Origin: Marsupella aquatica
Taxonomy: Eukaryota; Plantae; Marchantiophyta
Length of the DNA: 64,000 nucleotides
Assembly (NCBI GenBank): GCA_973895155.1
Contig: OZ316893.1
Coordinates: forward strand, 2,130,420 to 2,194,419
Direction: 5' to 3'
The notes under the pieces are model-generated. The model had not been told where the DNA came from. It did no database searches and saw only the letters and a program-made list of their open reading frames with translations. Shown here one piece after another: positions 3,938 through 24,200 of the stretch (position 1 is its first letter; every line of letters begins with the position of its first letter). Position numbers and translations under genes: made by a program.

Positions 3938-5480
3938 TAAGATTTCATCGTGCTTCCCAGCTTGGCTTAGCCCATGCATGCTAGATCTCCGGCAACATTA
4001 GTGTAATGTGTATCATTGATAGGTCCCTTGTTTGAAAGTCACTTGTCTTGAACTGGGAATCTCTAAACAAGAGTGTCATTTCAAGATGCCCAATTTGAAC
4101 ATTTCCCTGTGCTGAATTTGGGTTTCTTCAACAGGATCAAGAGTATTATAAGAGTTATTATGTTTTACTTGTCAGTACAAGTTTCATCCAAGACAAAAGA
4201 AAGATACACTTACTATCCTGAATACAATTATATTTGAGTAAAGGAAGGGCTTCCCTTACTCAGCCCGCAAATCCCTACTCACAAGTATAGTTTACATATC
4301 AAAATTTGTTATTACTAGAGAAATTATCATCTTTGATTGCAGTCCATGGAGTAGGTCATGAATAGTAGAGTGACGTTGGTTGTGATTGTAGTGTAGATGT
4401 GTCAAGACTTCCAGATTGGTCCTGTAAACAAGGGTCCACATGGTTGAACTTTGGTTGTTAAAAATATCATTCTTTTTTACACTCGACCAACATAAACTTC
4501 TAGAAATGGCTGATAAAGGAGAAACACTATGTGCCTATGTTTACGTGGGTAGTTTCAGCTTATGAAACACTAGGGGCTTGAAGTGGTTTATCCCCTAGTC
4601 TCAATTTTTTTGGAAACTCTAAGTCCTAATTCATTGGGGAATGTCATTAAGATGACCGCCTGCCACAAGTTGACTAAGACTGATTTGAAGACTCTTGCAT
4701 GTAATGAATTGAAAAGTGTTGAATGTGAGGAAGAGAGAGTTTCCAATAATTTGATGTACCTAGAGCATGCAATCTTTGAACAAGCTTGAAGGCTGGTAGT
4801 TACACTTTTTCTTCTGACTTTAGAGCTACATACATGCCTCCATCAGCTCCAATGTATCTACATTTTTAAAAGGCATAGGTGATAAGAAAATAGTATTTTT
4901 AAATTCAAATTCATATAATATTTTCTAATATAAACCTTTTATTTTAGCAGTGACAGTGAAAAAGGCCCTCGTTGTGGACTATTTTATAGTAAATAAGTAT
5001 TTTGAGTTAAACCCAATGTTTTTCTATGTTTTGTTGTCAATTGCAATGGTGCTACCACTTTCAACAATACCATCGGACAAATTAGATGGAATGGTCATCA
5101 AAGGCAAGAATGCTATCAAGCAACAAGGGAGAATGGGGTAGCAAGGGGCAAAATTGGGCAGCAAAAAAGGATAAGGAAAAGACACAAGGCAAAATGGAGG
5201 CAGCATTGGGGAAATTTGGACATCAAATAGAATTGAAATTAAAGGAACAAAAGGATATATGTATTAGACATGGCATCTCTAAGGCACCTCATTGACAAGT
5301 GTGAGAATAACCTGGGTTGGAGAGAAAATGTTAACTTTGTTTCAAAAGTTATTATGCATCATTGAAAAGCATAGTTGCTAGTTGCCAATTGATTTTTAGT
5401 ACTACACACCAGGACTAATCAACTTGTCAATACCTAGTGCACGCTCTGGGTGCATGTTACATCCAACATACAGTTTCATT

Positions 5481-5510
5481 CACTAGTAGAAACCGGGGGG
5501 TATTTAGACC
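5481..5510 (+). repeat. Left TIR of CACTA element
   Basis: CACTAGTAGAAACCGGGGGGTATTTAGACC. Confidence 0.95.
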
Positions 5511-6306
5511 CCATTAAACGACTATTCAGTACCGTATAGGACTTGGAAACGACTGGGAAGGACTCTAGTCCTTTATAGGACTGCGAGTCGTATGTTTTGT
5601 TACTATAATCAACTGAATCCTTTATAGAACTGGTTTATAAGTCGTTTAATAGACTGGATTTTCAGTCTATTTTAGTCTTTGTGTGGGTAGCTTTGGTGAG
5701 TCGTTTTCAGTCTTTTATGGGCTGCGATGATGAGTCGTTGGGAACGACTAAAAAGGTTATGGAGGGTAGTCTTTAAATATACTTTGTGGGGTATGTATAA
5801 GTCTTTCATGTCAACTGGATATGAGTGATGAAGACCCCACTATACTACTTGGAATGAACCCACTCTTGTGCACAAATAACATATTGCATTCATATTTTAT
5901 TGTGTACTTGGAATGAACTCACTCTATAAGTTCACCATTCATCATGTTAACATTAGAATACATAGTTTCAGAAAGCCATCTTCTATACCATGTACACTAA
6001 TATGAATTCACAGATTCAAACTTCATAGACTACAAAGAAGGTCACAAAGTATTCCTCTATACTATACACACTAATACTGAAATGATAAAATAGATTCAAG
6101 TATCATAGACAATCACCATAGAGCCATAGTTTGACATCAATCACTTGTTTCATACATACAGAATTCAAAAATATCAATGTCACACACAATGTCTCCTTCA
6201 TCCTCTTTACCAAATGGAAAAATTGGTACAGATATTTCTTGGATCTTTCCAAGGCAATGTCAAAATGTGACACAATTCACATGATTCTATCTACACTTGC
6301 ATTCAG

Positions 6307-9300
6307 TCATTGCAGACTAACACACTCTGATGGCCAGAGCACAAGAGATCCTACTGCATTTGCAATTATTTCCTAAGGTGGATCATCGTCTCTATTCGGA
6401 AATGGCAAATTACAATCAGATACAATCACTGTAGTCAACAACACTACTACATGGTCATCCGGGATCACTTTGCCATGGAATTTTGCATGATCCGGTCGCA
6501 AAATGCCTGTACCCACACATACCTGCGAGTCATCCTCCCATGATAGAAGATTATGGACTGGCTCTGCTGTGGCTATCACCTCCACCTTACCCTGGTTGTT
6601 TTTCTTGGCTTTCCTGGGTGGCTTATACATGACATTATTCATACCTTGGTTGCGAGTCATGACTTTGGCACGAGTGTTTTGTGCTGGTGATCGAGAATTG
6701 GCTACACTCTTCTTCAAAGAATCTGCATCCATATTTGACACTTTTGATTGTGTAGCAGGATTTCCCTGCGACATCATCTCAATATCTGCCAACATTGTAC
6801 TTGCTTCAATTGAAGCATCTACAATCTTACTTGCATCCAATGTTGCTCCCAAGTTTTGACGTCGCTTCACCCTATTCCCACTTGGTTGAGAGTCTGTCAA
6901 CTCTGCATCAACTACAATTCAGTGTCATGTCCAACATAAGTCAATCACTCATCACATGTGCTAAATGTACATGTCACCAACCACAAAGTTGTCACTATCT
7001 CCTTACCATTATGAACAGCCTTCTTCCCCTTCTTTGCCATTGCCATATGCTCCATGTCTGCTTCTGTTGATCAATAAACACACCACAATATTCAGGTTGA
7101 ATCTATTAACCACTGAATTGTTGCTCAACATTCATATAGAGGAATTTAAAGCATCAGCTTACCTGATACCTCCTTGGCTATGGTCACTGAGGCACTGGGC
7201 ACATCTTCTTCATTATTGCTCTTTGAATCACCTGATACATCAATCATGATGTCACTTCAGATCCCAGTTCATCCAACCAGTTCTTACAGAAAAGATTACC
7301 TCCAACCGGCTTAAGCTTCACAAAACTCCATGCACTTTTCAAATGTAATGTACTGGATCATAGCAGGTTACCTGTCTCAGCAACCTTCTTGCCCTTCTGC
7401 TTACTGATTACAGGGTCCTTCTCTGCCTCCACTCTTCCTGCATTCAAACCATTCACTCAATTCATGAAAACTTACTTCTAACATTTGAACATAGGACACA
7501 ATGAACAATGGGCTGGTGTCATTTCCATACCTGTGTCAGATTTGCCAATTCCCTTTTTTGTTAACAAGGGCACACTTTGTACAATGTTGCCCTCATTGTT
7601 TGGTTGGGAACCACCCAATTTTTCAATCACAAGCTTGAAATTAGATTCCACTGATGCAAGAAGGTTCGCTACAGATGCCTCCACAATATCCAAACGATCA
7701 GCCAATTTACTTTCCACTCGAGGGAGTCCACACTCTAATGACTTCAACCGTTCACACATCTCTGTGAGAGTTGTAACAGTTCCCTGTCATAACACAGCTT
7801 ACATATCTCAGATAACTGTCCCCAAGAACTGGTTGCTTACTTCCTACTACATTTCTTTCTGATGCTCAAGGCCAAATAGTCATAGAACATACATAATTAC
7901 AACATAATCACCTGTTTGGAAGTCACACTTGTCACCTCACTCCTTTGTTTCATGAACTCCTCTCTCACTTCTTGTGCTGATGGTTCTTCACCTGTCAATT
8001 TCTTCTGCAGTCCACATCAACATACATATGAATGAAACCAAGTGTTGATTGTCAATGAAAATGTAATAATGGTAGCAAGATGATAAGTTTGAGGCTTACT
8101 ATCAGGCATGTCACTGCCTTACCAATTGTTCTTTCACTGGAGCATAACTTCCTCTCCCAGCCTGTGAAAGGTGTTTCACTTTGCCTCGAGCATTTGACAT
8201 CAGTTCACTCTTGCTCTGTCCAGCCTCCGACATGAACCCTTTGATTAACCGTGTCCATTGATCCAGTTCCAATGATGGGGGTGGTGGCATTCTCCTGTTA
8301 GAACCATTGTCTATCCACATCCTTTTCAACCTATGCCTCTCTTGTTTCAAAATCCTCATTGCATAATCTGATATGCAATCTTCAACTGGGCCCTTACCAT
8401 CATTACCAACATAGTCCCACCGTTCAAGAATGTCCTTGCAGATAGCAGCCCAATCAGCTTTGTTCTAACTCCTAAACTCTGTAATGCTCAAATCTAACCA
8501 ACGCAATACTTCTCCTCTTAGGTTAGAATGCCAACGGTTCTTACCATCACATGTGGGAGTTATCCAACCTTCGGAATTCACTTCTACTTTACCAAATTTG
8601 TTACTGTCTCCTGCCTTGGTACTCCTTGAAGCGCTACTAGGTGTCCCTCCACGGCCTGGTGTCCCCCCACGGCCTGGGGTCCCTCCACGGCCTGATCTCC
8701 CCCCACGGCCTGGATTGCATTGTCCAAACCTCCCTGGAGTCCCTGCACATTTACAGGATCCATTTACAGTCACTTACATTAGGTAAGTATGAATCATAAA
8801 TCCCGCTGCCAAATATATAGTGGACTTCAGAGCAATTCTGCAATGACCAAGTTACCTCTCCCTTGGCGCATAGATGGTTCTGGACCACCTGTCCTATTGC
8901 TTTGTCTTGATGAATTAGGGGCGTTTCTCCCGCCTGTGAATGATTGCCTCCTATCTGAACGTGGATGGCCTTTGTTGTTTTCGTGATTGTCCCAATCAGA
9001 GTCTGCATACCAACAGGTACATGCCACACTCATGGACCTGTAAGATAAACTCTTTGCCCTAGCTACACATCAGATAAGTGCATATTGAGCTAAATCTCTA
9101 CTACCATCACAAAATCACTAGCACAAGGCACTTACTTGTCCAATCATCCTCCTCACCTTTCCATTGCCCTCTGTACCCGTCTCTACCACGCTCTGGGTGT
9201 TCATATTCATCCCATCCATCTTCTGCTCCATCATAGTCATCATCATAATTATCAGGCGTCCCTTGCCAATAACTCTGGCTCCTTCTAGGGTATGGATTAT

Positions 9301-9478
9301 GTGATTTCTCTCTAGCTGCCCACCTACCTGGGACTTGATGAGGGCCCTGTGCATCTTGCACAGGTGCATTTTTCTGTGAGCCCCCTGCATCTGGGTCTCC
9401 ATCCATATCCAATCTTTCCTCTTCACCCCACTCTCCAAGCCCCATGTCTGTCTCCATGTCATCACCCTCTTCCCCCAT
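6307..9478 (-). pseudogene. TnpA-like second gene of the CACTA element (Ptta/En/Spm-like region plus C-terminal TNP1/DUF8039-like domain), 9 predicted exons, 2 premature stops
   Basis: Phase-consistent GT-AG exons: 9478-9136, 9002-8856, 8742-8123, 8004-7912, 7783-7531, 7437-7372, 7231-7163, 7063-7007, 6902-6307. Motifs are QWTRLIKGFMSEAGQSKSELMSNARGKVKHLSQAGRGSY and FHGKVIPDDHVVV...LPFPNRDDDPP*EIIANAVGSLVLWP. In-frame TAGs lie at 8465-8467 and 6373-6375. Confidence 0.75.
8640..8712 (-). repeat. 18-bp coding tandem repeat encoding (PGRGGT)n, an RGG-rich segment
   Basis: CC(T/C)CCACGGCCTG units x4 on the + strand, translated as PGRGGRSGRGGTPGRGGTPGRGGTP. Confidence 0.8.
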
Positions 9479-9655
9479 AGCTTCTGCACAGCACCCACAA
9501 CCAAATAGGGAGAATCAGCACACTAAATTCAAAATATCAATCAATTTCATGCATATCCAACTATCCTAAACATCATTCCAGGCAGCAATTCCCGTTCTGT
9601 GACTCTATGCAGGTAGTCATCCTCAACCTCATACTTGCCAATCGCCAGCTGTTGC

Positions 9656-12600
9656 CTATTGCAAATCATCAACCTCATCATATTCCATTTTCCCAGGTTC
9701 ATCATATGTCTCTCTCAATGTTAAGGGGATGTAGTCAGTCCTTGCCCGAGTTGGAAGTACAGTCTCATGACTAGGATGCTCGAATGCAGCATGGTCATCC
9801 AAACTAAACTCTACTTTACTTCCATCCATCCGCCTGTTCCGTGCTTGGCTATGGCATACCACCCTCCAGCCATGTGACTCCTCCACATCTGCAAAGAAAG
9901 CCTGTTCAACTTGGCTAGGGAAAACAAAAGGCTCAGACCATTCTGGTACTCTGGACCTAAAATTGGCCAACAAGAACCCATCATGATCACGCTTCATGGT
10001 GGCCCTTGGTCTCTACCACTCTGATTTCACCCATGATCCCTTCATCAATATCACTGGGACACTTGTGTTACCATAATTCAACACCCAAATGTCGGTCAAC
10101 TCCCCCACGTAACCCATCTTCATCCACCCCCTCTGTTCTTCAGAGGTTCTGTGCTCAAACACAGAAATCAACCCACAATCATATGATACACAATGGTCAC
10201 CCTGCTCATCCCTCACTCGATAATGATTTCCATAAGCTCTCATCCGTTTGTAGGTCAGAATAGACAATCACGACGGCACAGATAGAAGATACAAATCCTT
10301 CTCCATATCTGGGTGATGTCTACTATGCTCTCGAATTGTCACCCGAATCCACTGCTCGAACTGTGGGAAGGGATCCTGCTGCCCAGAGTGTGCAGCTTTT
10401 TGCATATCATATTCCCTGCAATATGAGGTACAAGCATAGTTAGGTCTAAACAACACATGACAACCCAAGATCACCCTTGGAACAGACAAGAAGCATCACA
10501 ACAAAGGCAAGTCAATTCAATCACTCACCTCCACCATGGTTGCATAGGCTCTGTGTTTGCCAGCACATATGAATGAGCCTTGTCTCGAATCGCAACAGGC
10601 AGCTAAACAGCACGTCCCACACCTTCAACAACCTCACCACTCACTCCATCATCTTCACCAGATTTCCAAACTCTTGTCATAGCTTCACCAGACCCAGCCA
10701 TGTACTCTGTTAGGAATCCCAACGTCTCATCCTTAATGTACCCCAATGCCATGGAAGCCTCTGGCTTGTAGTATGTTCTCACATGACCTTTCAACAACTT
10801 CATGTATCGCTCCATAGGGTACATCCATCTGGTACTGACTGGCCCATACTGCCCTAGCTCTTCTACCACATGGATTAGGAGATGAGTCATAACATCAAAG
10901 AAAGCAGGGGGGAAGTATATCTCCAAGTCACAGAGGACATAAGCAGCATCCTGCTTCAACTGCTCCAATCCTTGGGGATCCCACACTTTCACACATATAC
11001 GGCGAAATACATTGCACAGTCAAAGAATGACATTACGGACTGGTTTCTGCATGAGACCTCTGAGGCATAGGGGCAGAATGTGCTGCATCAACACATGGTA
11101 GTCATGTGTTTTCATACTGCCAAGTTTATTCTTTGTAATATGCTTCTTGAAGGCACCAGCATAGCCAGAGGGCACTTTCAGACAGCTCAATCTATACAAG
11201 AATGTCTTCCATTCATCCTGTGTGCACACATAGGGAGCTTGGAACTTGAGAAGTACATTGGGATTGCTTGCATGGGGCTTCAACCAAAGGTGAGGGCGAA
11301 TCCCCTTCTGTTGCATATCAGCTCGAACTGCTCCTGTATCTTTCTCACCCGACAAGAACTTCAGCAAGCTCTCACAAATATTTTTCTCAATGTGCATGAC
11401 GTCCACATTGTGTTTGCTGGGCTCGAATTCCTGCACTCCACAAAGCAAAGAATTCAACAACAGAAACACTAATTAACCACAGAGGAGGATTGTAACCAAC
11501 ATCAATCCACCATTGCTCCAATCTAAAATTGCAATCATACAGGGGCTGGAGGCTAAGTACATTACCCTCCAGTACTCCAACTCCAAGTCCATCAAGGTCT
11601 GTCTTTTCACACCGTGTTTCACCACTGGATCCTCAGGTTCTCGATCAGTGGCACTTCTCTTGTCCCAATCAGCCTTCCTGGCTGCCCACCTCAGGACTTG
11701 CTCTCTGGTGACCCTCTGTGGTGGGCCACGAAACTCTGTTTTGTTGTTGAAGTGTGCAATTTGAGACCGTGTGTGCCTGTAAGGATGATCAACAGGCAGA
11801 TACCTTCTATGCCCCTGAAATTTCATACTGTGCAGGGCATGCGACCACTCACTTGTCACATTTTTCCCACATGGTGTGCACCCCACATAGCCCTTTGTCA
11901 CTCGTCCAGATATGATGCCATGGCCTGGGTAATCTGCTATATCCAGCAAACAAATTGCATGCAGTCTAAAGGGGCTGGGTCGAAGAAGCCCCTTCAGAAC
12001 ATCATGGGTTAACACCCCTTCTATCCACAAAGTCTTCCACTCTTCCACTGCTGGAGCCAACATGATATCTATGAATTGCTCGGTCACAGAAGCTGGTCCA
12101 GGGATTAACAGCACCATCATGACAAAAAACCTGTTTGTAGTCATCCATGGGGGAAGGTTGTAATTTAGCAGCGTAACCGGCCAACATGAATAACGGTTGT
12201 TTTTGTCTCCAAATGGGTTTACTCCATCCAGTGATAGACCAAATTGAAAGTTCCGCTTCTCTGCAGCAAACTGTGGCCACCTCTCATCAACAAATTTCCA
12301 ATGGTTGGAATCTCCAATGTGACGCTGCAGGCCATCACTGCTCTTGTTATCAAGAGTCCATGTCATCAGCTTGGAAATGGCAGGGCATCTAAACAGACGT
12401 TGTAGTCTAGGAATGAGAGGAAAATGACGAAGAACCTTGGCAGGGTGTGTACATTTCCCTACATTCTTGTACCTGTGCTTACCACAATGAGGGCATGTCA
12501 ATTTATCTGCATGCTCTTTGCGAAAGAGAACACACCCATCAGGGCATGCGTCAATAGACACATAGTTCAGCCCAAGGTTAGACATCAATTTCCTAGCCTC

Positions 12601-13356
12601 GTACATATTTTTTGGAATTGAATTACCATCTGGTAACACATTTCGGCGCAGGAAGGTCAACAACTCTGTCACAAATATATTGGGAACATTGTGATTGCCA
12701 CAGATGTTCAACAACAACACGACAAAACCCAGCTTGGAGTAGTTCGACCCCTCGTAGATAGGAATGCAAGCTTCTTTGATGTGTTTTGGGCCCCCAAACA
12801 CCCACTCCCTCTCTGCTGCACCTTCCCCAATGTCAAAGTCAGGTTCAGCTTGGCCGTCGCCAATGTGTGGCTGCGGTTCATTGTCCTCTTCTGATTCCAC
12901 TGTGTCGTAAAAAGCATCAAGGTCTTCAAAAATCTCTTGAACCATTCTTGGGACATCCATCCCACCGTCCTCAGTGACTGCCTCTGCCTCTCCATCTTGG
13001 TCATCCACGTTCTCATGTTGGACCCCAGGACCATCCTCTGCACAGTCTATGTCCTGCTCTACGTAGTCTCTACGCCTAGCTGTATTAGAATCCACAAAGT
13101 CAGCTCTCCACTCTTCATCAGAGGAGTCTTCTTCTGCTGGTACATTCCAAACCCTCCACTGAGGGTGCCTTTCATGCCGCAGCAGGTGAAGGTGCACAGT
13201 GTTCAAACTCAACGACTTGAATCCTTGGCACTGTGTGCATGGGCATCTCATCCTCCTACTCCTACCTTGGGCGGCCCGGGCTTGTTCACGCATCCACAAT
13301 TTAGAATCATGATGCCTAATCCTAAATGGGTTGTGAAGAGGCAACCTTGGAGCCAT
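9656..13356 (-). pseudogene. CACTA TnpD/TNP2 transposase (transposase-associated, Transposase_21, DUF4218 and DUF4216-type regions), 3 exons, 4 premature stops
   Basis: Exons 13356-11566, 11430-10529 and 10415-9656, with GT-AG introns of 135 and 113 bp. Hallmark motifs: CPCTQC, IDACPDGCVLFR, LRHFPLIPRLQRLF, GLSLDGVNPF, YSCWPV..LNYNLPPW, DYPG, HNVDVMHIEKNI, MKTHDYHVLMQ, FPPAFFDVMTHL, RWMYPMERYM, EPFVFPSQVEQAFF. In-frame stops lie at 11020-11022, 10603-10605, 10268-10270 and 10013-10015. Confidence 0.93.
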
Positions 13357-13710
13357 CACTATACACGCACTCAGCACCCTGTCATTTTATTATGCAAGTG
13401 AAAAATACACTTCCTATTAAGGATTTCACCCCCGACTGTACTTGCCAAAATACGTAACGTTCCAAAAAAACAAAAAAACAAAAAATATAGGTGCCTGAGT
13501 CATGTACCTATTCTCAAGTGAATGAGACAAAATTCCTAAATGTTTGAGGGTGTCAACTCCTCCGCTGTCCTCACATGTACTGCCTCTGCACGTACATCCA
13601 TGACCATATCAGAGTCCAATCATGTATAGTCATAGACACAGGTGCCAGGTGCGAGACCGGTGTGAGATGTCCTCATCTTACTACCACATCAAATACGGAT
13701 ACCAATCCTG

Positions 13711-14154
13711 TTATCGATGCCACTCAGCCCTGAGGTACTCAGGCATGTACATTAAGTCATCAAGGTCTAAACCCTGCTCATGCCATGGTGGTCTTCGATC
13801 CGTGCCTACAAGCAGTGGCAGCAGTGCCCTCCATGGTGCACATGTTGCTACCAAGTCCCTCCATTGGGTACTAATTAGTCTATATTTGCAGATATCTTGT
13901 GCGCCAGACACCACAAGAACCCTCGGCCAGACATGTGTAAGAACTATATCATCTGCCAAATCAGGCAACAAGGAACCACCTACAGCATCGTGCTTGTCTA
14001 ACTCATCTGCTGAAAAGTAAATGTCCTCTTCCGACTGTGCATCCTCATTCACCACAACATTCACAACACATCCAAGGTCTGCAGGCATTATCTCGGATGG
14101 AGCTACACTCTGTCTGGTTACCAATCCACACAAGTAAGCCCAAGCAGTAGCCAT
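13711..14154 (-). CDS. F-box-like protein carried inside the CACTA element (possibly truncated at the C-terminus)
   Basis: SLLPDLADDIVLTHVWPRVL...QDICKYRLISTQWRDLV fits the F-box pattern LPxLPDDI...R.V(C/S)xxW. First ATG at 14154. Confidence 0.6.
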   Translation of the reverse strand: MATAWAYLCGLVTRQSVAPSEIMPADLGCVVNVVVNEDAQSEEDIYFSADELDKHDAVGGSLLPDLADDIVLTHVWPRVLVVSGAQDICKYRLISTQWRDLVATCAPWRALLPLLVGTDRRPPWHEQGLDLDDLMYMPEYLRAEWHR

Positions 14155-14390
14155 GCACGATGCAACCCGTAGGAGGACCCTACATAGGGCCTGACGGTCT
14201 GGAAGAGGCAGCATACCCACCAAAGTTTTCAGCCAAACAGAGCCCAGCAAGTAGATTCACAGTCACACCCCACGCAGCAGGAAACAACAATCACTTCAAC
14301 TGCGACCAACCATGACAAGATGAGTTAGTTCAAGGATCACATTTATTACAAAATTGTGATTTATACAAAAATATGAGGGACTCCTACTCC

Positions 14391-15239
14391 TCACTCTCTC
14401 CCACCTTTGCTAAGCATACATCTCCGCTGAATCTTGGAGGGCCAGGCCTCAAAAATATCAAAGTCCCAAGCATTCTGTCGCTTCCCTCTAGCTGCTGATT
14501 CCAGAAGCCAATCAGGGGAAAGCACCCAAAGATTGTTGTTCATGATAAAATCACGCACTGTTGTCTTAAAGAATTTTCTGCATATTTTCATGTATGACAG
14601 ACCTACAACATGAGTGGAGGTTTCTGTTAGACTCTCCTCCACTGTCCCACCTAGCTCAACAACTATAGACTTGTACAGTCTGCACTTAGTCTCCCCAATT
14701 CCTTCTTCTGCAAATACCACACTGAACCCCTTCATAATGGTATTTCTCTCCTTGCCATGCTCATTCAATATAGCATCTGCACGCATAGGATGGTGTCCTA
14801 TGTTGACAACAGGTCCATATTGGACAGAAGCAAAGTTGGGTTTCTCTGCCGCTGCTTCATAGGCTTCCTTTTCAGCCAAAGCCTCTGCAGTGGCCTCCTC
14901 ACTCTCCCACAACTCATATTGCTCAGTACTCTGTACACACCTATGTTTAACAGAATTGGTCAGCCAAGAGACTTCAACTACTTTTAGACCTTGGTTGGTA
15001 ATGGCAGAATCAATGAAGGACCATGACCACTTGTTCATCACATCCAGCCATGTCCCCGCAACAACATGTGTAGTCTGTGGAGTGATGTCCTTGACTTCAG
15101 TTCCATGGAACTCTGAGAATCGTTTTTGTACGATTGGCCAACTCACTTGGGTGAACCCATAGTGGCCAGGAATCAAAATGGCTTTGATTCCAGCCAACAG
15201 AGGCGGGTGGTCAACCTTTGTACGTTTCCTAGAGGCCAT
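14391..15239 (-). CDS. Tandem-BRCT protein carried inside the CACTA element (BRCTs resemble plant DNA polymerase lambda BRCT)
   Basis: Uninterrupted 282-codon ORF. It has two BRCT signatures: ...FHGTEVKDITPQTTHVVAG...LKVVEVSWLTNSV...EQYEL and ...ELGGTVEESLTETSTHVVG...WVLSPDWLLESAARGKRQNAWDFDI. It starts with basic RKRTK, and AATAAA lies downstream on the minus strand at 14342-14347. Confidence 0.8.
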   Translation of the reverse strand: MASRKRTKVDHPPLLAGIKAILIPGHYGFTQVSWPIVQKRFSEFHGTEVKDITPQTTHVVAGTWLDVMNKWSWSFIDSAITNQGLKVVEVSWLTNSVKHRCVQSTEQYELWESEEATAEALAEKEAYEAAAEKPNFASVQYGPVVNIGHHPMRADAILNEHGKERNTIMKGFSVVFAEEGIGETKCRLYKSIVVELGGTVEESLTETSTHVVGLSYMKICRKFFKTTVRDFIMNNNLWVLSPDWLLESAARGKRQNAWDFDIFEAWPSKIQRRCMLSKGGRE

Positions 15240-15837
15240 GTACACACGGGCCACCTAATCACTGCAGACCGGAAGATAATGCGTTCACCTGATAATCGGA
15301 GGGCCCTTAAAATGCTGCGTTTATAACTTGGTCCAGTCCAGTCGTCTGGTGAGTCTCTGCTCCGATTCCAAACGGGAGAAATATTGGGACAAACGTACTA
15401 GACACCTGCAAGCATGCACCTCATAGTTTGAATATGTGCCTTCACAATATTGAAGGTGACAAGTGCAATTGTTTTGTGATGCCACATACAGATGTTGTAA
15501 ATGGGCAGACATTCAATGAGAATACAAAATGTTGGTACACTTTAAGGGAATTCTCGCAAATTAAATAGCCTTGTAACTTATATGCTCATAATGAGAAGTC
15601 CTGATTTAATTTAAGCAGTGTCATGTAAGTCGTGATCAAAATGATTGCAGAGTTAAAAAAGTTCCTAGAAGGCTTAAGGGGAGTTTTTGAAGGCATGTAC
15701 CCAGGAACAAGTAATGAACTTAGGGTACTTGTTGCCTAAGCATCCTCTCCTACAGAGGTCCTTCTTCTCAAAATTGGAATGTCTGCAATCTCCAAGGTAT
15801 CCACATCAGGTGCACTATGCATGTACATTATTCAGGT

Positions 15838-16517
15838 TCAAAGCCAAGAAATGTGATCTCTCATGGGAGTGTGCAAAGTAGGATCTATGGCATGGCGATG
15901 ACAATAGAAGATCCATCGATCAACACCATGTGCAGAGTGATCATAGATGTGTCTGTCACAAGCATACCTTCTGCTTGACGCTCCTTCAAACAATGAAAGT
16001 GCCACATGGTGGGACACCTAACACAGTGGACTATGTCCACCCAGAAATCTTCATCGTGCTGACCACATGCCTTGCACTTATGAAGTGGGCAAGCTGTGGC
16101 AAGATCGGGCAAACATGAAAAACAAAAGAACCTCACACAATATCTGCCAGGGCATTTCCTAACAAGTGGTGGAGCATCAACAAAGCCCTCATAAGACCCC
16201 AACTTCCCACACTGTGCACACTTAGCCTGCTTCTCCAAACAATCAGTGCACATCCAGCCTCCCTGGTGTGCTGACGGGAGGCCCACCCCTGGACAGTTGT
16301 TTTCTGCAGCAAGGTCAGACTCCGGGTTGAGGTGGAAATGCCTCATGCAAGGGCCCTCACATATGGCTAAGCCACCACCATCGTCACAAATGGCACAACA
16401 ATGAGCTGCCTTTTGGAAAATCTGACTTGCGGAGAAGTTACTACCATCTGGCCCAACTACACCTGTGTTGCTCACCTCTGTCCCCCGCTTCTTGGCTCGG
16501 ATTTTAGGGCGTGCCAT
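15838..16517 (-). pseudogene. EDM2/NSD-type composite PHD-finger protein carried inside the CACTA element (one frameshift near 15955-15990)
   Basis: CAICDDGGGLAICEGPCMRHFH...WMCTDC...CAQCGKLGS...C...C..CPLHKCKACG...CVRCPTMWHFHCL. In the shifted frame it continues RHIYD...DRWIFYCHRHAIDPTLHTPMRDHISWL*, which parallels the EDM2 segment after the PHDs (recalled as RVLIYCQEHEIDEELLTPVRDHVKF). Confidence 0.85.
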
Positions 16518-17186
16518 GCCTACGCATGAGACAGATAGTACAATTTAGCAGAGTGCACAGACAATACAATTTAGTGTAGTGTACAAAAAGTACAGTGTAG
16601 CATATAGACTAGAGTGGCAATTGCTACTGCAATGAAATGTTCACACACATGTGCAGAGTAGACATACTTTTTGGTTTGTTGAGCCCACACTAAAAACTGA
16701 TCCCCTCGTACAATAGCTCCACCTACACCTCAATTTTGTGGCTATGATTCACCAAAGGAGATCTGCAACAAGATTTAATGCATTTGAATCACATATAACA
16801 GTCGTGACATGTAAAACAGGCATTTTTTGAACAGGATTGGTATCAAGCACTGTGATCAGGGTTGTAATTTATACATCCTAAATAGGCTATGATAGTGAAT
16901 GAGACAAATAAGTTAGGCAGAAATCACTTTTTCCAGGTTATCACATGGCCCATTAATTCCAGTCTTTGAAAGGAGACTTTTAAGTGAGCTTGCTAGCCTC
17001 TTAAATTAGGATATTGTACTTAGTGCAACCATAATAGGATAAGTTATGTACTGTTGACCCTAAACCCTGGACCCAAAATTGGTCATAATTCAAAATCTTA
17101 AGTAAATATCCTCTCTGTTCAAGTCAAAGTGTTAAGTTATAGGTCAATGGTCTCTGGTTTGTGCATGCGGTGTGACAAGTGGTCCT

Positions 17187-17636
17187 CTAGAGCGTGTGAT
17201 CCAAACATGTGTAGACACCAAAGTGACCGGTGGTGGGGTCTGGGAGGGCAGGACAAGTGACATCGCCAAGCACACTGCAGGATGGCGAGTGGTTCCAGAT
17301 GATACATTGTGCTCTGTGAAAAAACCGACATCCAAGAGAACGGTCATCCAACTCTAGGCCAGAAGCCCTACAGGCAGGACAGTCATATTGGCAACTGTGC
17401 ACACACCCTTGGGCCCTAATTTGTGGCGGGTCATGTACTAGAGACATAAATACCAAGGATGTTGGGAAGGGTGGAGAAGCAGGTACAGGCCGGCTGTAGT
17501 TGTTCCTGGCAACAACTGGGTACTCAAAGTACCATGCAGACTGGGTTGGAAGGATCCCAAGTCTGACATACTCAAGGCGCAACATCTCTGCCTTGCGTGC
17601 AAGCCGCACATGTTCAGCGTTGCGGGTCCTCACCAT
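17187..17636 (-). CDS. Orphan Cys/His-rich 149-aa ORF inside the CACTA element
   Basis: ATG-initiated and co-oriented with the other element genes. Basic N-terminus and a CxxxCxxxCxxC...C..H...C...H...C cluster. No family recognised. Confidence 0.35.
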   Translation of the reverse strand: MVRTRNAEHVRLARKAEMLRLEYVRLGILPTQSAWYFEYPVVARNNYSRPVPASPPFPTSLVFMSLVHDPPQIRAQGCVHSCQYDCPACRASGLELDDRSLGCRFFHRAQCIIWNHSPSCSVLGDVTCPALPDPTTGHFGVYTCLDHTL

Positions 17637-17899
17637 AAGTGTTGCTTTTGTGGAGATGTCGTGTGTTCACGTCCTCTGATAAGCACCTTCGATCAGCAAG
17701 GTGAGCAGGAGCTGTACTTGCCTCACCAACAACAACCAACCTTAAATTATCAGTTCCCACTCACTGTGTCATTCCATTGGTTCCAGCTAGGGGTCACAGT
17801 GTAAACATAGCATGAAACACTCCTAACCAACTTGCTTACAAACTACAATATCCAGAAAGAGTGAAAGTCTCACCCTCCAGTGAGCAGCAGAGAGGTAGT

Positions 17900-18286
17900 T
17901 CAGTAGATGTGTTGATGTGCAGTTAAACCTCCACTATTGCTTACTTCTGGTGTATGCTGCTCAGAAGAAGACATATTAGTAGCAGCAAATTGCAAATAAT
18001 GGCCATAAGCAAACCGTGAGAGTTTGCAGAATGCTACGACAAATCCATCACAGCAGTGCTCCACAGGAATGAAACCAAGCAAAATTTGGTGACCTCGGCC
18101 AATGACAAGGCCAATGTAGTGAACAATCCTTGACCGATCAGGATATGGATTGGAATTACAATTAGTCAGCTCTTCTTCTTTGTTTTCTAACTCTGGGGGA
18201 AATGAGCATGACCAGGGAATTCTCTGAGAAATAGAAGTGCACAGGGAAAATGAAATTGGCTCATTCAGCTGCGCAAGACCGGCCAT
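17900..18286 (-). CDS. Hypothetical ORF inside the CACTA element
   Basis: Open frame 17900-18433 with an internal ATG at 18286, on the same strand as the cassette. No recognisable domain. Confidence 0.2.
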   Translation of the reverse strand: MAGLAQLNEPISFSLCTSISQRIPWSCSFPPELENKEEELTNCNSNPYPDRSRIVHYIGLVIGRGHQILLGFIPVEHCCDGFVVAFCKLSRFAYGHYLQFAATNMSSSEQHTPEVSNSGGLTAHQHIY

Positions 18287-20812
18287 TGCAGCATACTTGG
18301 ACAGTTGTTCCGCAATACATAAAATACCCTGACTTACATGCAATCGATACAATCTGCTTCTGTTGGCTGTCCTACAGCTCACGGCAGTGTCGTTGGGATA
18401 GGGTAAGTGAATATTGCCATAGCTAAAGCACATTGAGCTTGCAGCAAGAAGTGAAGGAGGATGGCCAAAAGCAGAAAAGACAGACAGGTTTTACAAGAAG
18501 AAACTAACAACCGCCAATCTGCTCAAATCCGCTGCATAGATCAAACCCTCCAAACTACACAGCCCTCCTTTGAAAACAATCCAATGTGCTTTGGCTGGTG
18601 GATGACAAGGACTGGGAGAAGAGGAAACGTCTACACAATCAATCCAAATGACGGGACACAGAGACCAGGCACAGAGAGGATTTGTGCTTAGACAAAAACC
18701 ACAAATTGTAGCATGGGCGCCATAGCATTGGGCGGCAATGGGAAGAATTACATCAAATGAGTGGACAGAGAATGAACAATCCGGTTATAGGCAAACAGCG
18801 ACTGATGCCCTGATGCAATGAAACACGCATTGACATAGCGGAGGGACATAAAAACTACATAAGCCAACTTACTGACCTTTTAAAGCCCACAATTTCAAGG
18901 GGAGGGACAAAGATAGCAGTAACAGACGCAGAGACAAAGCTGTACTCTGTCAATTGAATAGGCAAGTGGGTGGGTGAAGATCAACAACCAATGTAGCAGC
19001 GCAACCAGAGTAGCAACAAAGAAGCAGGTTGCCCTCAGTCTCCTATTTTTCAAGCAGCTTGTGCTCGTGGTCAATCTCCTATTCTGCAAGCAGCTCACGC
19101 TCGTCCCTCTTGTTCTGCAAGCAGGTCATTCTTGTCGGCGATGGTGCAAGCTGTCCTCCTAAACTCTAACACTCAAAATGAAAAGACCAAGCACCTCCAA
19201 TCTGTTTGATCCCTTCCGCAAGCAGCCGAGCGGCAGACGATAATGTAGGGATCAAGAACCAAGTGCCAGGCGGACATTGCACAAAATGAGGACCGGGGGC
19301 AGAGACAAAATCTACCAAAATCTACCAAAATCTACTTCTTGGGGTCCAGCCCACGGATGGACATCATGCAAGGTGGTCAAAAATGGTAAGTGCAATTGTT
19401 GGAGAGCTGTACTCGCGATTACTAACGGTGCATCCACAAAACGCGTCATCAAGTTGTCAGTGCGGCCACAACAATTTTGATAGTCTCAGGATCACAGGTC
19501 CACAAACAAGTTGCAAATGAAGACACACAACATCCAGGAGGGAAAGTCCGCAACACTAACCCTTTGTAAAGCCCCCGAGCTTACCTTCTAGCTGCCGACG
19601 CAAAGAGAAAACCTACTCGGACACTCAAGCAACCCTAAACTCAAAGTCTCACCTTAGCGCAACAACTCCTGGATTGGATTCAGCTAGCTCAGGCTGAATC
19701 CCACAAAAGGACAGAGGACAACATCGAAAAGCAATGTAGCCATGATGTCTTACCAGCAACGGGATCTTTAAACTTAAGGCGGTGCACTCGGCTTAAATGG
19801 CAGCAGGTAAAGGTATTTTCTTCAACAACTATAGTGGTAATGTTACCCGTGCTTTCGTTCTCTGCCGTGGTGCTGCAACAACTCCCTCCGTAGCCCAAGC
19901 CTAAGGTGCAAATCACCAGCTCGCTGCTCTTGCTACTTGCTAGTGCCCTTCACTGAAACGCAAAACAACACAAAGACGTAAGATGACTGACCGGAAGACA
20001 ATCCCGACAACCTCATATGACAGACTGCTTTTCTAGTGTGAAGAAATACATGATTACAAGCAACACCACGCCTCATCCAAGCAGGGATGTACATGAATAC
20101 AACAACAAAAATTTGCATACAACGATGGCCCGGTCACTTGAGGCTTTCGAGCCCTCACAATGTCAGATGGTACTAGGATCTACAAGGGATGCTAAATGGC
20201 TTCTCTCAAATCATGGAGTCTTGAATAACTCATATCCAGCGACAAACAAACTCAACAAATTCTGAATTCCTACCGAATCCAATCAGAATCGGCAATTTCA
20301 GCAGCTTCGACTGCCAAGACAAATCATAATGAATTTCATTGTGTTGGGGTTTTCCATAACTCTTCAGCCATAGGGAGAATGTGCTGAACCTAATGTACCA
20401 TTCAATCAGGCAAGCTGTATGCTATGGAGGTATGACATTGCTCAAAATAGGATGGACCAGAGGAGATGTAGCTACTACGCAGTCAACTGAGAACAGAGCG
20501 GAGCGGATCTGCTTGAGCTCTGCTACTTGTTGTTTGGTTTTTGGGCATGAGTGTAAGGAGTGGGTGCGCAAGCTAGGGCCTATAGTAACCTTCAGCCTGT
20601 AGAGGCAATGAAAGTATTCAACAGACAACCCAACAAAACAATGTGGAACTAAAGTTGCTGGAAAAGGGATGAAAGAAGCACACTTTCAGCTGCATGGCCG
20701 GGACTAACCTTTGGTTGATGACACTGATAACCAATGGCAGCACTGTCAACTGCTTCCTCCTAACAAACAACCGGCTCCCGATTTTGCAACTGCTCTTTAA
20801 GCTCCACGACCT

Positions 20813-21060
20813 CCTTCACAACTCCAATGTCCACCTTCCGCAGCAGCAATGATTGCCTCCCTGCTCAGCCTCCTTTCAATGCCTCCGCAAGCTTTAAGGA
20901 CCCACTACAGTCCACCTTCCGCAGTGGTCGCCTTCCACAGCGCCTTCACAACTCCAATGTCCACCTTCCACAGCAACAAACGATTGCCGCCCTGCTCACG
21001 CCTCCTTTGAATGCCTCCGCGACCTTAAGGACCCACTACAGTTAAACTTCCGCAACAATC
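20813..21060. repeat. ~130-bp tandem duplication within the CACTA element
   Basis: CCTTCACAACTCCAATGTCCACCTTCC...TAAGGACCCACTACAGT occurs at ~20813 and ~20942. Confidence 0.8.
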
Positions 21061-21849
21061 ACCTCACCTTACAATAGACCTTGGCACCGCAACACCTTCC
21101 CAGATCACAGCTCCTCCCCTCAGCTAAACCCTCAGCGCCTCAGTCCCCAGATCATAGCTCCTCCCGAACTGCAACTCACTGAAAACCTAAGCACTAAGGA
21201 GTGCCCTCGACATTGTTGCCGTTGCGCTGCACATTGCCCTGCCGCACGACATTTCTCATAAGGAATGGAATGACCTAAGCACTTAGGACTACCCTGGACA
21301 TTGCCATTGCGCTCCACATTGCCTTGTTGCACGTCGTTTCTTGGTAGAAATGGAGAAATCTAGACCTCCGACACAATCTACAAATCCTTTTGCAAGCAAC
21401 TGGCCCTCTCCTCAACAGCTCGCGATGGTAGCACAACCTTCTTGAAACAAATGGCAACACAAAGTCGCTCTGGGTGCAGCCACAACACATCGGCAGTGCG
21501 GGTCAGGAGAATTGTGCAACAATGAGAGGCCCTTCTCTCAAAAATCCCCGAAGAATGAAGCCCTCACAACTAGCTCCGATCGAAGGTTGCAGCAGCCACA
21601 ACCTTCTTAGCCCTACAGCCAAAACCTAAATCCAACGTAAAACCCCGAACCTTGGACCCCTCACGTTTTGCGTCCAAATGACAATGGCCCAAACACTCCA
21701 AAGTCACTCCCAAAGACCAGTTTAGTGCCTCTTTACTAGATTAGAGGACTTAAGTCATTAAGGGGAGCCACTCAACCTTACCGTTTGAGTGAGCCGTTGA
21801 GTGTCACCCAAAGTGAGACACCACTACATTGAAGTGTTATTGCATGGCC

Positions 21850-22150
21850 ATCTTGGGTATTTCAGCAAATTTTTCTTGGCTTGGAAAAGTTCAATAAAGC
21901 CGGATGTTGGTGAAGTAGAGCCGGCTGTGAATTGAAAATCATGCTAGCCCAAAAATCTTGGGTATGCGTGCACCCGGTTCTTGGCTTGGCAAACTTGAAT
22001 AGAATGGGATGTTGGTGACCCCCACCCCCTTGAGACCTAACCGGCCCACCCTTGACATATAAACCCTACTAAACCCCCTTTAGTGGTGACCACCCACACC
22101 CTTCACATATAACCGGCCCACCCTTGACACGTAAACCCCCCCTAAACCCA
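21850..22150. repeat. Subterminal direct repeats of the CACTA element
   Basis: TCTTGGGTAT...TTCTTGGCTTGG...GGATGTTGGTGA twice, and AACCGGCCCACCCTTGACA...AAACCC twice. Confidence 0.7.
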
Positions 22151-22453
22151 CTATGGAGTATATGAGACATTAGGGCATTTAGACATGTAGTGAGTTTGTA
22201 CGTGTTCAATATAGCGGACGTAAACCCCCCATATGCCCATTATCAAATTGAGGCCCACAACTAAACCCTACAACACTCATGTGCGAGAGTGTTCACCCTT
22301 TCACAAAGTAGGGTACGTGGAAACTTTTCATAGTCTTATCCTAAACCAAAAAGCACTCACAGTCTTTTGTAGTGTTCATGTGAACCGGTGCAATGGTTCC
22401 GAGTCATTTGAAGTTGTAAAAAAGGACTTAGTGGCCTTAGTCCTATAAGGTTT

Positions 22454-22482
22454 GGTCTAAATTGCCCCGGTTTCTACTAGTG
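22454..22482 (-). repeat. Right TIR of CACTA element
   Basis: Reverse complement reads CACTAGTAGAAACCGGGGCAATTTAGACC. Confidence 0.95.
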
Positions 22483-22552
22483 ATTGCTCTGTCTCACAAA
22501 CTAACTAAGAGCATTGTTAGAAGCACTTTCAATGCATTCGCAATTTTGTAAG

Positions 22553-22897
22553 TGTTAGGATTTACTTTTAGGTCTGGAGTTACGAATGTACCGCAGTTAG
22601 GACTAACCTTAATAACATATTAGGTTAGGTTAGTCATGTTGTGCACACACTATACCCAAGCGGTGTTTTCTTGGATAGTAGGAACATGGGCTCATTGTTA
22701 CAAAGCCAGTTGAGAGATAGGGGGAGTTTGTGTTGTGAATGCTTGGTATGGCCGGTCGGCCTAGAGTGCAGAAAGCTCTTGTGTGTTCCCGTGGACATAG
22801 TCTCATGTGGAGGTGAACCACATATCTCTCTGTGTCAACTTTTGTGCATTGGATGGTTCATGGGCTTGTCATTTGTGATTATCGTCTATGCTCAACA
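22553..22897. mobile_element. Probable solo LTR (345 bp)
   Basis: TGTTAGG...CTCAACA termini. Flanks GTAAG/ATAAG are a 5-bp TSD with 1 mismatch. Homologous sequence occurs inverted at ~53633-54248 and ~40920-41150. Confidence 0.6.
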
Positions 22898-23844
22898 ATA
22901 AGGGCTTTATCCCTGGTTGAGGCTTGTAGAAGATTGCAACCTAGTTAATTGATCCTATCATGTCATCTTCAGTAGTGAGCAGGCCACCCACCAAGCGCTC
23001 CTCTAGTTATAGTTGGTGCAGGATCGGGAAGCCCTATAGCCTCAACAATCGCATTATAGGCCTTAGCGCCATTGATATAGTAGCATTTCACCCATGTCAA
23101 TGACTACATGGAATTTATGTTATTGAGACTTGAAGCTACTGGTTGGAGAAGACTAATAAAGGTTGTATTCCATCGGCGTCAAGCAAGTCGATGGGTTTTG
23201 CCTGTTCCCTCCAAAAGCTTTGGTAGCTCGTGGCCATTGTCAGGGTAACCCTTGACTTTGACTCAGGAGTCAATGGGCCGCATGGCCTTCCACTCTACTT
23301 TCCTTGCCCTCAGCAAGCTAATCGCGAACAGCCTGTTGCTAGTCACTGCACCCCTTGTGAATTGAATGCTATGTGTGCATTCAACTGGTCTTACTCCACT
23401 TGAAGCTTGTAGCGGTAGCACCAGATTCGTGCAAAATATTACATGTAGCCAGACAGTGGATCGTCTGCTGAAAAGTAGGGGGCACAACATGACTTCCTGG
23501 GATGAAGGTCTCATCTCTACCACAACTTCCACAACTGAGTCCAAGCCAGCTTTCGAGGACACAGAACTCCTCCCGCTTCCCACATTCATGACTCGTATCA
23601 AATCCACCGACAGCACTGCTAGCATCTAGTGGTGTATATAGAGCACAAATGTTTCAAATAAAGGAAAGACGAGTGTGGATGAACTCATCCAAGTGAACCA
23701 ATTTGTTAAAAGTAGTGAATACACTTCCAATCTTGAAAGCTCCCAATAAATTGTGGATGTGTTGCCCTGGAATGCACCACTTACAACATCTTTTAGGCAC
23801 AAATTCAATCCCCGTGTGTTGCAAAGGACTGTGTAGACATGTCG

Positions 23845-24200
23845 CTAAGTAAAAAATGTCATTGTGCAAAACATGTTGTGATGTTGTTGCATAAACATGT
23901 CATTGCATAAAAGATATCATTAAGTAATAAATGTTGTTGCACAAAAGTTGTCATCCAGTAAAATATATTGGTGCTCAAAAGATGTTGTTAAGTAAATGAA
24001 ATTGTTGCTCAAAACATGTAGTCTACTAAAAGATATTGTTCGGCAAAAGATGTCAGTGCATAAGAGATGACAATGTGCTAAAGATATGGTTGAGAAAAGT
24101 ATTATGGTGCAAAAGATATAGTTGAGTAAAATATTTCTTTTGTTAACAAGATCTCGTTCATAAAACATGTTGTCAAGTCAAAAAAGTCATGGCACAAACG
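23845..24200. repeat. Degenerate ~20-bp minisatellite (AAAAGATGTTGT/ATGTCATTG-like)
   Basis: Many imperfect copies. The same family occurs inverted at ~51750-51895. Confidence 0.55.

What the first reader, a model, noticed from the sequence alone, without database searches (positions are those of the whole stretch)
15838..16517. Transposon-borne EDM2-like PHD module: possible anti-silencing or heterochromatin-targeting factor
Seen: CAICDDGG..ICEGPCMRHFH, C..CGKLGS, CPLHKC..C and C.RCP..WH..CL. Across a frameshift not visible in the ORF track it continues WIFYCHRHAIDPTLHTPMRDHI. Known: this spacing matches the composite PHD region of plant EDM2 (compared from memory) and is related to NSD PHDs. 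EDM2 reads H3K9me2-containing marks and, with ASI1/AIPP1, promotes full-length transcripts through intronic heterochromatin. Only the reader module plus a basic N-terminus (RPKIRAKKR) is retained here. Inference: the element could use it to keep its own long, intron-rich transcript processed when heterochromatic, to act as a decoy against host EDM2, or to steer insertion.
Basis: partly seen in the sequence, partly recalled or inferred. Interest (0 to 1): 0.85.

Follow-up and report, generated by a model that had tools for sequence, protein, structure and literature searches.

The report
Transposon's own EDM2-type histone-reader gene
A multi-copy plant jumping gene carries its own deeply conserved gene for a zinc-finger module related to the chromatin protein EDM2, which likely reads histone marks to help the element escape silencing, although the copy in this window is broken by a one-base deletion.

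Summary
The motifs lie in a 680-bp gene (16517-15838, minus strand) inside a complete 17-kb CACTA transposon (5481-22482; 18-bp TIRs, ATT target duplication, TnpD). The frameshift is a one-base loss at 15966/15967. Sibling copies in 4 of 4 runs laid (3 studies) carry the base, and intact 217-226-aa relatives exist. The gene is not a recently captured EDM2 fragment. It belongs to a family of about 20 short stand-alone proteins, mostly 38-53% identical, that keep their zinc ligands. They form their own clade (100/100) outside canonical EDM2, nearest to liverwort RFD-PHD paralogues (weak support), and lack EDM2's acidic, RFD and methyltransferase-like parts. A neighbouring tandem-BRCT gene sits in the same position in a CACTA whose TnpD is 41% identical. 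One divergent PHD probably shares a contig with a TnpD of the same clade. So this is an old accessory gene of one CACTA lineage, probably in bryophytes. Its function is untested. Most likely it is a reader-only factor that occupies repressively marked nucleosomes and counters silencing; insertion targeting is the main rival. No RNA or binding data were obtained.

The parts
5481..22482 (-). Complete CACTA (En/Spm) DNA transposon, 17,002 bp; all genes on the minus strand
   Evidence: 18-bp perfect TIRs beginning CACTA and 3-bp duplication ATT; the only such TIR/TSD pair in the window
5481..5498 (+). Left TIR (preceded by ATT at 5478-5480)
22465..22482 (-). Right TIR (followed by ATT at 22483-22485)
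15838..16517 (-). Stand-alone EDM2/NSD-type multi-PHD accessory gene, about 226 aa when intact; one base missing at 15966/15967 in this copy; a possible splice acceptor 2 nt before the ATG
   Evidence: acceptor is a weak hint (26 of 519 YAG sites score as high)
14391..15239 (-). Intact tandem-BRCT accessory gene (282 aa), conserved in position upstream of TnpD in a distant CACTA
   Evidence: Pfam BRCT E 3.9e-13, 2 stretches; L001:875-1681, tblastn E 2.6e-22, 28% identity
13711..14256 (-). Open frame of 181 codons with a faint F-box-like stretch; status as a gene uncertain
   Evidence: Pfam F-box E 0.081, below cut-off; no match in L001
17187..17666 (-). Cys/His-rich open frame of 159 codons, unidentified
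   Evidence: no Pfam match, no PDB match
9656..13356 (-). TnpD transposase gene, several exons
   Evidence: Transposase_21 E 6.5e-58, DUF4218 E 5.2e-28, DUF4216 E 0.0048; 581 relatives among 7,564 candidates
6373..9514 (-). TnpA-like exon region; an in-frame TAG at 8465-8467 in this copy is read as CAG in runs X1, X7 and X9
   Evidence: Transposase_24 E 0.0042, below cut-off

Best explanation
This is an old accessory gene of one CACTA transposon lineage, encoding a stand-alone EDM2/NSD-type multi-PHD zinc-finger protein that likely binds histone H3 tails on repressively marked nucleosomes and so likely helps the element counter host silencing. Shown: location inside a TIR/TSD-bounded CACTA; an intact frame in sibling copies; a deep family with conserved zinc ligands; loss of all other EDM2 domains. 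Predicted: a compact folded cassette (residues 30-226) behind a disordered basic tail. Inferred: TnpA, or a low basal activity, opens the 5' end. The PHD protein then enters the nucleus through its basic tail and sits on H3K9-methylated (or similarly marked) nucleosomes along the 17-kb body. There it acts as a reader without effector, masking the mark from, or competing with, the host's EDM2-family and other silencing readers. Transcripts can then reach the TnpD/TnpA exons 9-16 kb downstream. I put the accessory-gene status at about 0.9, and this particular mechanism at about 0.45.
For: Intact siblings: the missing base is present in contigs of 4 of 4 runs laid (3 studies, 3 organism labels), and P0002-P0004 are intact. 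In run X1, near-identical contigs over TnpA, TnpD and the intact PHD have similar depth (1,817-2,073), against 20.6 for a flank contig. Depth is no copy number, so I read this only as 'multi-copy, with the PHD travelling with the transposase'. Constraint: 8 complete members, mostly 38-53% identical, share 45 invariant positions, 24 of them Cys/His. P0002 and P0004 agree at 26 of 27 ligand columns but only 61 of 182 others. Own clade, 100/100. The family hallmark occurs in 11 of 25 short and 0 of 139 long proteins. AlphaFold pLDDT 86.8, pTM 0.81. Closest solved relatives are the PHD cassettes of NSD2/NSD3 (E 2.8e-26), and the fold hits are H3-binding PHD tandems. Age of the association: the BRCT neighbour is conserved at 41% TnpD identity. 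PHD P0147 and TnpD P0055 both lie on an ENA contig of exactly 13,432 bp (chance about 0.0007 for this one, 0.106 over all 16 lengths), and P0055 falls in the same 11-of-121 TnpD clade as the window and L001. Literature (passages): EDM2's PHDs bind H3K9me2 and other marks (PMC7472560). H3K9 methylation persists on Spm elements activated by TnpA (bioRxiv 10.64898/2026.08.24.746577). EnSpm elements elsewhere carry chromatin-modifying accessory genes (PMC12730594).
Against: No binding, expression or genetic data. The position two residues before the first Cys, acidic in AIRE (its role in reading unmodified H3K4 is recalled), is His or Gln in P0002-P0004, and EDM2's acidic linker (net -14 to -18 in the Solanaceae rows; -3 in the truncated P0007) is replaced by a basic tail (+2 to +9), so the binding preference may have changed. 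A reader with no DNA-binding domain cannot by itself tell its own element from others. DNA context was seen only for the window's own family; P0147 is an inference from contig length. 12 of 20 family members are partial or run out of frame. The missing base accounts for only 7-30% of summed depth at that place; other contigs break there, some with loose ends that carry an extra base, so some copies may share the deletion. The substitution test is weak: 15 non-synonymous against 9 synonymous, pN/pS 0.44, p 0.045, from the 24 in-frame rows among 40 shown of 181. A hornwort showed no H3K9me2 peaks (PMC10952607), so the mark may differ in the host.
Confidence: 0.45

Rival explanations
1. The PHD protein, perhaps with the tandem-BRCT protein, is a targeting adaptor that tethers the TnpA/TnpD transpososome to nucleosomes of a chosen state and steers insertion, as chromodomains do for some Gypsy elements.
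For: A reader with no effector suits a tether. PHD and Chromo domains are the commonest chromatin domains fused to transposon proteins (bioRxiv 10.1101/2021.11.30.470311, passages). Residues 97-209 resemble the NSD PHD-C5HCH tandem (Z 5.6, rmsd 2.6, 75 aligned), which also serves as a protein-binding surface (recalled).
Against: The ORF has its own stop and a conserved C-terminus, so it is not fused to the transposase. No interaction was tested. This copy lies about 10 kb from a Yippee-like gene, which says nothing about preference.
Confidence: 0.25
2. The protein works like full EDM2 in cis: it recruits the host ASI1-AIPP1 complex and suppresses premature polyadenylation in the element's long transcript.
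For: Homology to EDM2's PHD region over its whole length. The transposase exons lie 9-16 kb from the 5' end, behind several ORFs. The AAE complex does this job for genes with intronic heterochromatin (PMC7472560).
Against: The RFD, acidic and methyltransferase-like regions are absent from the protein and from the window. The clade lies outside canonical EDM2. Which part of EDM2 binds AIPP1 could not be checked, because the primary papers were not held.
Confidence: 0.12
3. The module no longer reads histones and serves as a zinc-finger scaffold or decoy for a non-histone host protein, or acts with the BRCT protein in repair of the excision site.
For: Charge reversal of the N-terminal region. 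The second finger is shortened by about 24 residues and has a His-to-Cys ligand change. The BRCT neighbour resembles BRCA1 (E 4.9e-8) and, weakly, DNA polymerase lambda (E 0.005).
Against: The first finger keeps the CAICDDGGEL strand and a G.W.C motif like AIRE PHD1, and the cassette is kept whole.
Confidence: 0.12
4. It is a neutral captured host fragment (Pack-CACTA-like cargo) or sequence camouflage, with no protein function.
For: The window's copy is broken, and 12 of 20 family members are partial or out of frame.
Against: Only 25-33% identity to the host proteins compared. No introns, fixed termini, and selective retention of zinc ligands across about 60% divergence. None of 15 listed amino-acid changes hits a Cys/His or makes a stop. 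The element has its own TnpD.
Confidence: 0.06

Closest known systems
EDM2 (ENHANCED DOWNY MILDEW 2) and EDM2-like proteins of land plants
   Same: Collinear PHD region, including the EDM2-type C-terminal YC..H...RDHI stretch; 25 of 28 EDM2-invariant Cys/His columns hold Cys or His. All 12 longer hits carry the PHD_NSD domain, and 5 of 12 are named EDM2 or EDM2-like.
   Different: About 30% identity; no RFD, acidic or methyltransferase-like region; basic N-terminus; shortened second finger; separate clade; intronless and encoded inside a transposon.
Liverwort RFD+PHD paralogues (Marchantia Mp1g03210 = P0154, Riccia P0153, Calypogeia P0152/P0199, Marchantia paleacea P0169)
   Same: They end shortly after the PHD cassette and lack the methyltransferase-like domain; several share the CDGPC spacing; nearest host group in the 28-row tree.
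   Different: They keep an RFD domain and 619-768 aa. The branch joining them with the transposon clade has only 91/78 support, so the donor is not established.
NSD1/2/3 PHD cassettes (PHD1-3; PHD5-C5HCH)
   Same: Profile hit to NSD2 residues 644-799, E 2.8e-26; fold match to 9gbf, 2naa and 4gng.
   Different: No SET or PWWP domain; the C-terminal part follows EDM2, not NSD.
Transposon-encoded anti-silencing or chromatin accessory genes: VANC of VANDAL, TnpA of Spm, TET/JBP of fungal EnSpm, SET of HarbingerS
   Same: A separate accessory ORF in an autonomous DNA transposon, aimed at chromatin (listing, 100 and 113 passages).
   Different: Those are sequence-specific DNA binders or enzymes; this one is a host-derived reader module with neither activity apparent.
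PHD and Chromo domains fused to transposon proteins (Grau-Bove et al., bioRxiv 10.1101/2021.11.30.470311)
   Same: Transposons co-opt histone readers (passages).
   Different: Those are fusions, mostly in retrotransposons; CACTA, EnSpm and tnp2 do not occur in the main text. Its Supplementary Table 6 could not be seen.

Membership tests
CACTA/En-Spm transposon | Short TIRs beginning CACTA | tested here: met
   18-bp perfect TIRs
CACTA/En-Spm transposon | 3-bp target-site duplication | tested here: met
   ATT on both sides
CACTA/En-Spm transposon | TnpD (tnp2) transposase | tested here: met
   Transposase_21 E 6.5e-58, DUF4218 E 5.2e-28
CACTA/En-Spm transposon | TnpA-like gene and subterminal repeats | tested here: inconclusive
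   Transposase_24 E 0.0042, below cut-off; one 7-mer six times in the left 420 bp, no control run
EDM2 (canonical) | Two-and-a-half atypical PHD fingers | tested here: met
EDM2 (canonical) | N-terminal RFD domain and acidic regions | tested here: not met
   No RFD match in 4 family members tested or in the window at meaningful E; basic rather than acidic linker
EDM2 (canonical) | C-terminal methyltransferase-like (ELP) domain | tested here: not met
   Proteins end at the cassette; no tblastn hit in the window
EDM2 (canonical) | Placement inside the EDM2 clade | tested here: not met
   Separate clade, 100/100, outside the methyltransferase-bearing group; trees are unrooted and the stem is long
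EDM2 (canonical) | Binds H3K9me2-containing tails; joins ASI1-AIPP1 | not testable with these tools
   No assay or histone reference available
NSD-type PHD cassette | Homologous PHD1-PHD2-variant PHD arrangement | tested here: met
   Pfam PF23011, PF22908, PF23004 in order; NSD2 E 2.8e-26
Pack-CACTA captured fragment | Non-autonomous element carrying a recent, decaying host fragment (definition recalled) | tested here: not met
   TnpD present; 25-33% identity to host proteins; ligands selectively kept
VANC-type anti-silencing factor | Sequence-specific binding and demethylation of related copies in trans | not testable with these tools
   No homology to VANC was sought; no methylation data

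The most novel reading that the evidence does not exclude
A CACTA lineage of early land plants long ago took a PHD cassette from the EDM2 family and stripped it to a reader-only mimic. It is expressed with a tandem-BRCT protein as a small chromatin toolkit. The mimic neutralises heterochromatin by occupying the mark and out-competing the host's own EDM2-family readers: an anti-silencing strategy based on mimicry of a host reader, not on sequence-specific DNA binding or an enzyme.
Probability: 0.3. Interest if true: 0.85.

Novelty: new variant of a known kind. Interest (0 to 1): 0.7.

Why it matters
Known transposon counter-silencing factors in plants (VANC, TnpA) bind their own DNA motifs. A host-derived histone-reader module kept as a separate gene across a deep CACTA clade would add a different route. 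The family is multi-copy with intact members, so it is directly testable. It also offers a natural, minimal and probably soluble version of the EDM2 cassette, for which the PDB search returned no solved plant structure, and it points to unstudied liverwort RFD-PHD paralogues.

Tried and rejected
No genome is held for this window, so copies could not be counted or aligned as DNA. A metagenome scan with the PHD alignment found 0 loci among 97 candidate stretches. A scan with TnpD gave 6 loci among 185 stretches. None shows a PHD, but L001 ends 875 bp upstream of its BRCT gene, and L002-L006 hold more distant, mostly broken TnpD with little upstream element sequence. No RNA holder was listed. Runs X8 and X9 cover parts of TnpD but barely cover the PHD at 80% likeness; a part without cover is no evidence. 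Six small-share runs were listed; three were laid (X7, X8, X9) and three were not (X6, X10, X11). The first fold, on 3 sequences, failed (pLDDT 33.5). The Atlas gave no result. One search used a wrong frame after the break; one search replaces it. The idea that the BRCT pair derives from polymerase lambda got only weak support (E 0.005, behind BRCA1). Splice-acceptor scoring was inconclusive. No complex prediction was run, since no histone chain was available and neighbourhood alone is no reason. An intron at the break was rejected: intact relatives are collinear. A sequencing error at the break cannot be excluded. Literature searches found no description of this gene: CACTA + PHD finger + transposon (20 papers, 19 listed), EnSpm + BRCT + transposase (0), anti-silencing terms (32, 20 listed), DNA transposon + PHD domain terms (47, 20 listed), EnSpm/PHD/liverwort/moss (129, 15 listed). 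These were judged from listings. Repbase and subscription journals were not searched. A recalled link between NSD1 PHDs and H3K18ac was not found and is not used.

Full report
Observation. The frame from the ATG at 16517 matches three NSD-type PHD Pfam families in order: PHD-1st_NSD, PHD_NSD and PHDvar_NSD, only the last above its cut-off. The C-terminal part continues in another frame to a stop at 15838.

The element. An 18-bp perfect inverted repeat beginning CACTA bounds 5481-22482, with ATT on both sides; it is the only such pair in the window. On the minus strand, from the right end, lie a long 5' region, an unidentified Cys/His-rich frame (17666-17187), the PHD gene, a tandem-BRCT gene (15239-14391), a faint F-box-like frame, TnpD (from 13356) and a TnpA-like region. 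The host is not given. The only named protein among the 120 listed TnpD relatives is from Riccia sorocarpa (41%), and it is sister to the window's TnpD clade with support 87. A bryophyte host is therefore likely but not shown.

The frameshift is copy-specific. The first search found 3 relatives among 114 candidates (77, 73 and 38% identity). All three are intact, 217-226 aa, and end in the same residues. Against them the window lacks one base in a Gly codon at 15966/15967. Contigs of 4 of 4 runs laid carry an extra base there (3 studies, 3 organism labels). These make up 7-30% of the summed depth at that place. Other contigs break there, several with loose ends holding an extra base, so I cannot say that no other copy shares the deletion. 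In the second lay, X1 showed the base and X7, X8 and X9 did not list it. The window copy also has an in-frame TAG in the TnpA region that X1, X7 and X9 read as CAG. This copy is slightly decayed.

The family is multi-copy and the PHD travels with it. In X1, contigs 98-99% like the window cover TnpA (depth 2,073), TnpD (1,817-1,949) and the PHD (1,978; base-restored form 1,851), while a flank contig identical over 22902-23700 has depth 20.6. The tool warns that depth is no copy number, and the runs were found with the PHD region, so I take this only as 'many copies, with PHD and transposase at a similar level'. A contig of the same depth joins 5472 to 22899 with 34 other letters between. That is an allele or paralogue without the element and without about 420 bp of flank: suggestive of recent insertion, but not a clean empty site.

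What the protein is. A search for longer relatives gave 12 hits among 3,842 candidates. All carry PHD_NSD, and 5 are named EDM2 or EDM2-like (E 4e-21 to 2e-13). They are collinear over the whole cassette, including the EDM2-type C-terminal stretch. A profile search of 1.84 billion representatives gave 376 hits, 150 listed; the best six are unnamed proteins of 166-245 aa. About 20 such short proteins were seen, 8 complete and 12 partial or running out of frame, as expected of transposon copies or contig ends. A hallmark in the second finger occurs in 11 of 25 short and 0 of 139 long proteins. In an 82-row quick tree (18 family rows, 64 of 146 other regions) and a 28-row full tree, they form one clade (SH-aLRT 96-98; 100/100) outside the canonical, methyltransferase-bearing EDM2 proteins. 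I assigned rows to the family before building the trees, and the trees are unrooted. The nearest host group is a set of liverwort RFD+PHD proteins without the methyltransferase-like domain (Marchantia, Riccia, Calypogeia; names), with only 91/78 support. No RFD or methyltransferase-like sequence is found in the four family members tested or in the window.

Constraint and structure. Eight complete members, mostly 38-53% identical, share 45 invariant positions, 24 of them Cys/His. P0002 and P0004 agree at 26 of 27 ligand columns and at 61 of 182 others. Among the 24 in-frame substitutions listed (from 40 rows shown of 181), 9 are synonymous and 15 are not; none hits Cys/His or makes a stop; pN/pS is 0.44 (p 0.045, a biased subset). 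With 34 sequences AlphaFold gives pLDDT 86.8 and pTM 0.81, with residues 1-25 unresolved. The closest solved sequences are NSD2/NSD3 PHD cassettes (7 hits, best E 2.8e-26). Fold searches give PZP domains and NSD PHD-C5HCH tandems; the best VIA match is 9gbf, Z 5.6, rmsd 2.6, 75 aligned, which is below the tool's range for a firm call. The 35 residues before the first finger carry net +2 to +9, against -14 to -18 in the Solanaceae EDM2 rows.

The cargo is old. Locus L001, whose TnpD is 41% identical, has an intact tandem-BRCT gene directly upstream of TnpD (E 2.6e-22, 28% identity). It ends too early to show a PHD. The divergent PHD P0147 (44% to P0002) and the TnpD P0055 each lie on one ENA contig of 13,432 bp. 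The chance expectation is 0.0007 for that length and 0.106 over all 16 lengths tested. P0055 is close to L001's TnpD and inside the 11-of-121 clade (support 99) that holds the window's TnpD. I infer that both accessory genes go back to the ancestor of this clade; the PHD half of that rests on one indirect match. An earlier unchecked note of this scan (e1-7364156) describes a SET exon upstream of the transposase in peat-moss CACTAs, which is a parallel lead and not support.

How it most likely works. EDM2's PHD fingers bind H3K9me2 and other marks, and the ASI1-AIPP1-EDM2 complex favours read-through of intronic heterochromatin (PMC7472560, PMC7529245; passages). In Arabidopsis, H3K9 methylation stays on Spm elements that TnpA has activated (bioRxiv 10.64898/2026.08.24.746577; passages). 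An element whose transposase exons lie 9-16 kb downstream of its 5' end therefore has a use for a factor that handles marked nucleosomes. Rivals are tethering of the transpososome (0.25), full EDM2-like recruitment of ASI1-AIPP1 (0.12), a non-histone scaffold or repair role (0.12) and neutral cargo (0.06). Every step from histone binding onward is inference. Against it: the acidic position seen before the first Cys of AIRE is not kept, the protein has no evident way to recognise its own element, and bryophyte heterochromatin differs from that of Arabidopsis (no H3K9me2 peaks in a hornwort; PMC10952607, passages).

Comparison and novelty. It is a member of the CACTA superfamily and a homologue, but not a member, of canonical EDM2. 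Transposon-borne chromatin factors are a known kind: VANC and TnpA, TET/JBP in fungal EnSpm and SET in HarbingerS (PMC12730594, passages), and PHD/Chromo fusions (bioRxiv 10.1101/2021.11.30.470311, passages). I found no description of a stand-alone EDM2-type PHD gene or a BRCT gene in CACTA elements in five searches judged from listings. Passages of a review of gene capture (PMC13317346) and of an atlas of Arabidopsis transposon products (PMC13547354) showed no occurrence of PHD or BRCT in the main text. Repbase, subscription journals, the primary EDM2 papers and the bioRxiv supplement listing fusions were not seen and could hold a precedent. Passages of PMC3632883 and PMC10241880 gave background only.

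Verdict. Real feature; new variant of a known kind; interest 0.7. The anatomy and the evolutionary case are strong; the mechanism is open.

Noticed in passing
window 14391-15239 (-) and L001:875-1681 (+): A tandem-BRCT gene conserved directly upstream of TnpD in CACTA elements 41% identical in TnpD; best solved matches are BRCA1 and, weakly, polymerase lambda. It may deserve its own study.
   Followed up: partly
window 17187-17666 (-): Cys/His-rich open frame inside the element with no Pfam or PDB match; well covered by contigs in run X1.
   Followed up: partly
window 13711-14256 (-): 181-codon frame with a faint F-box-like stretch (E 0.081) between the BRCT gene and TnpD.
   Followed up: partly
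window 16051-16224: Run X1 holds a second, about 14% divergent PHD subfamily at similar contig depth (1,813).
   Followed up: no
window 54771-58084 (-): Non-LTR retrotransposon with RT (E 3.1e-10) and a C-terminal Cys/His and endonuclease-like region in a second frame; it looks CRE/R2-like (label recalled).
   Followed up: no
window 37884-39068: Element with about 300-bp inverted arms (92-98% complementary), MITE- or foldback-like.
   Followed up: no
window 22483-22900: Very high-copy repeat next to the right TIR, with an inverted relative at 54159-54209.
   Followed up: no
window 32797-33309 (+) and 29828-30175 (+): Host gene fragments: a Yippee-like exon (E 0.013) and a Lys/Ala/Glu-rich repeat frame that looks LEA-like (label recalled).
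   Followed up: no
window 42047-42581 and 48638-49211; 23839-24137 and 51732-51894: A 0.5-kb direct repeat pair (92-94%) 6.6 kb apart, and a 17-bp tandem array present twice in inverted orientation.
   Followed up: no
P0152, P0153, P0154, P0169, P0199: Liverworts have a clade of RFD+PHD proteins without the methyltransferase-like domain (97/97 to 100/100); I did not search the literature for them specifically.
   Followed up: partly
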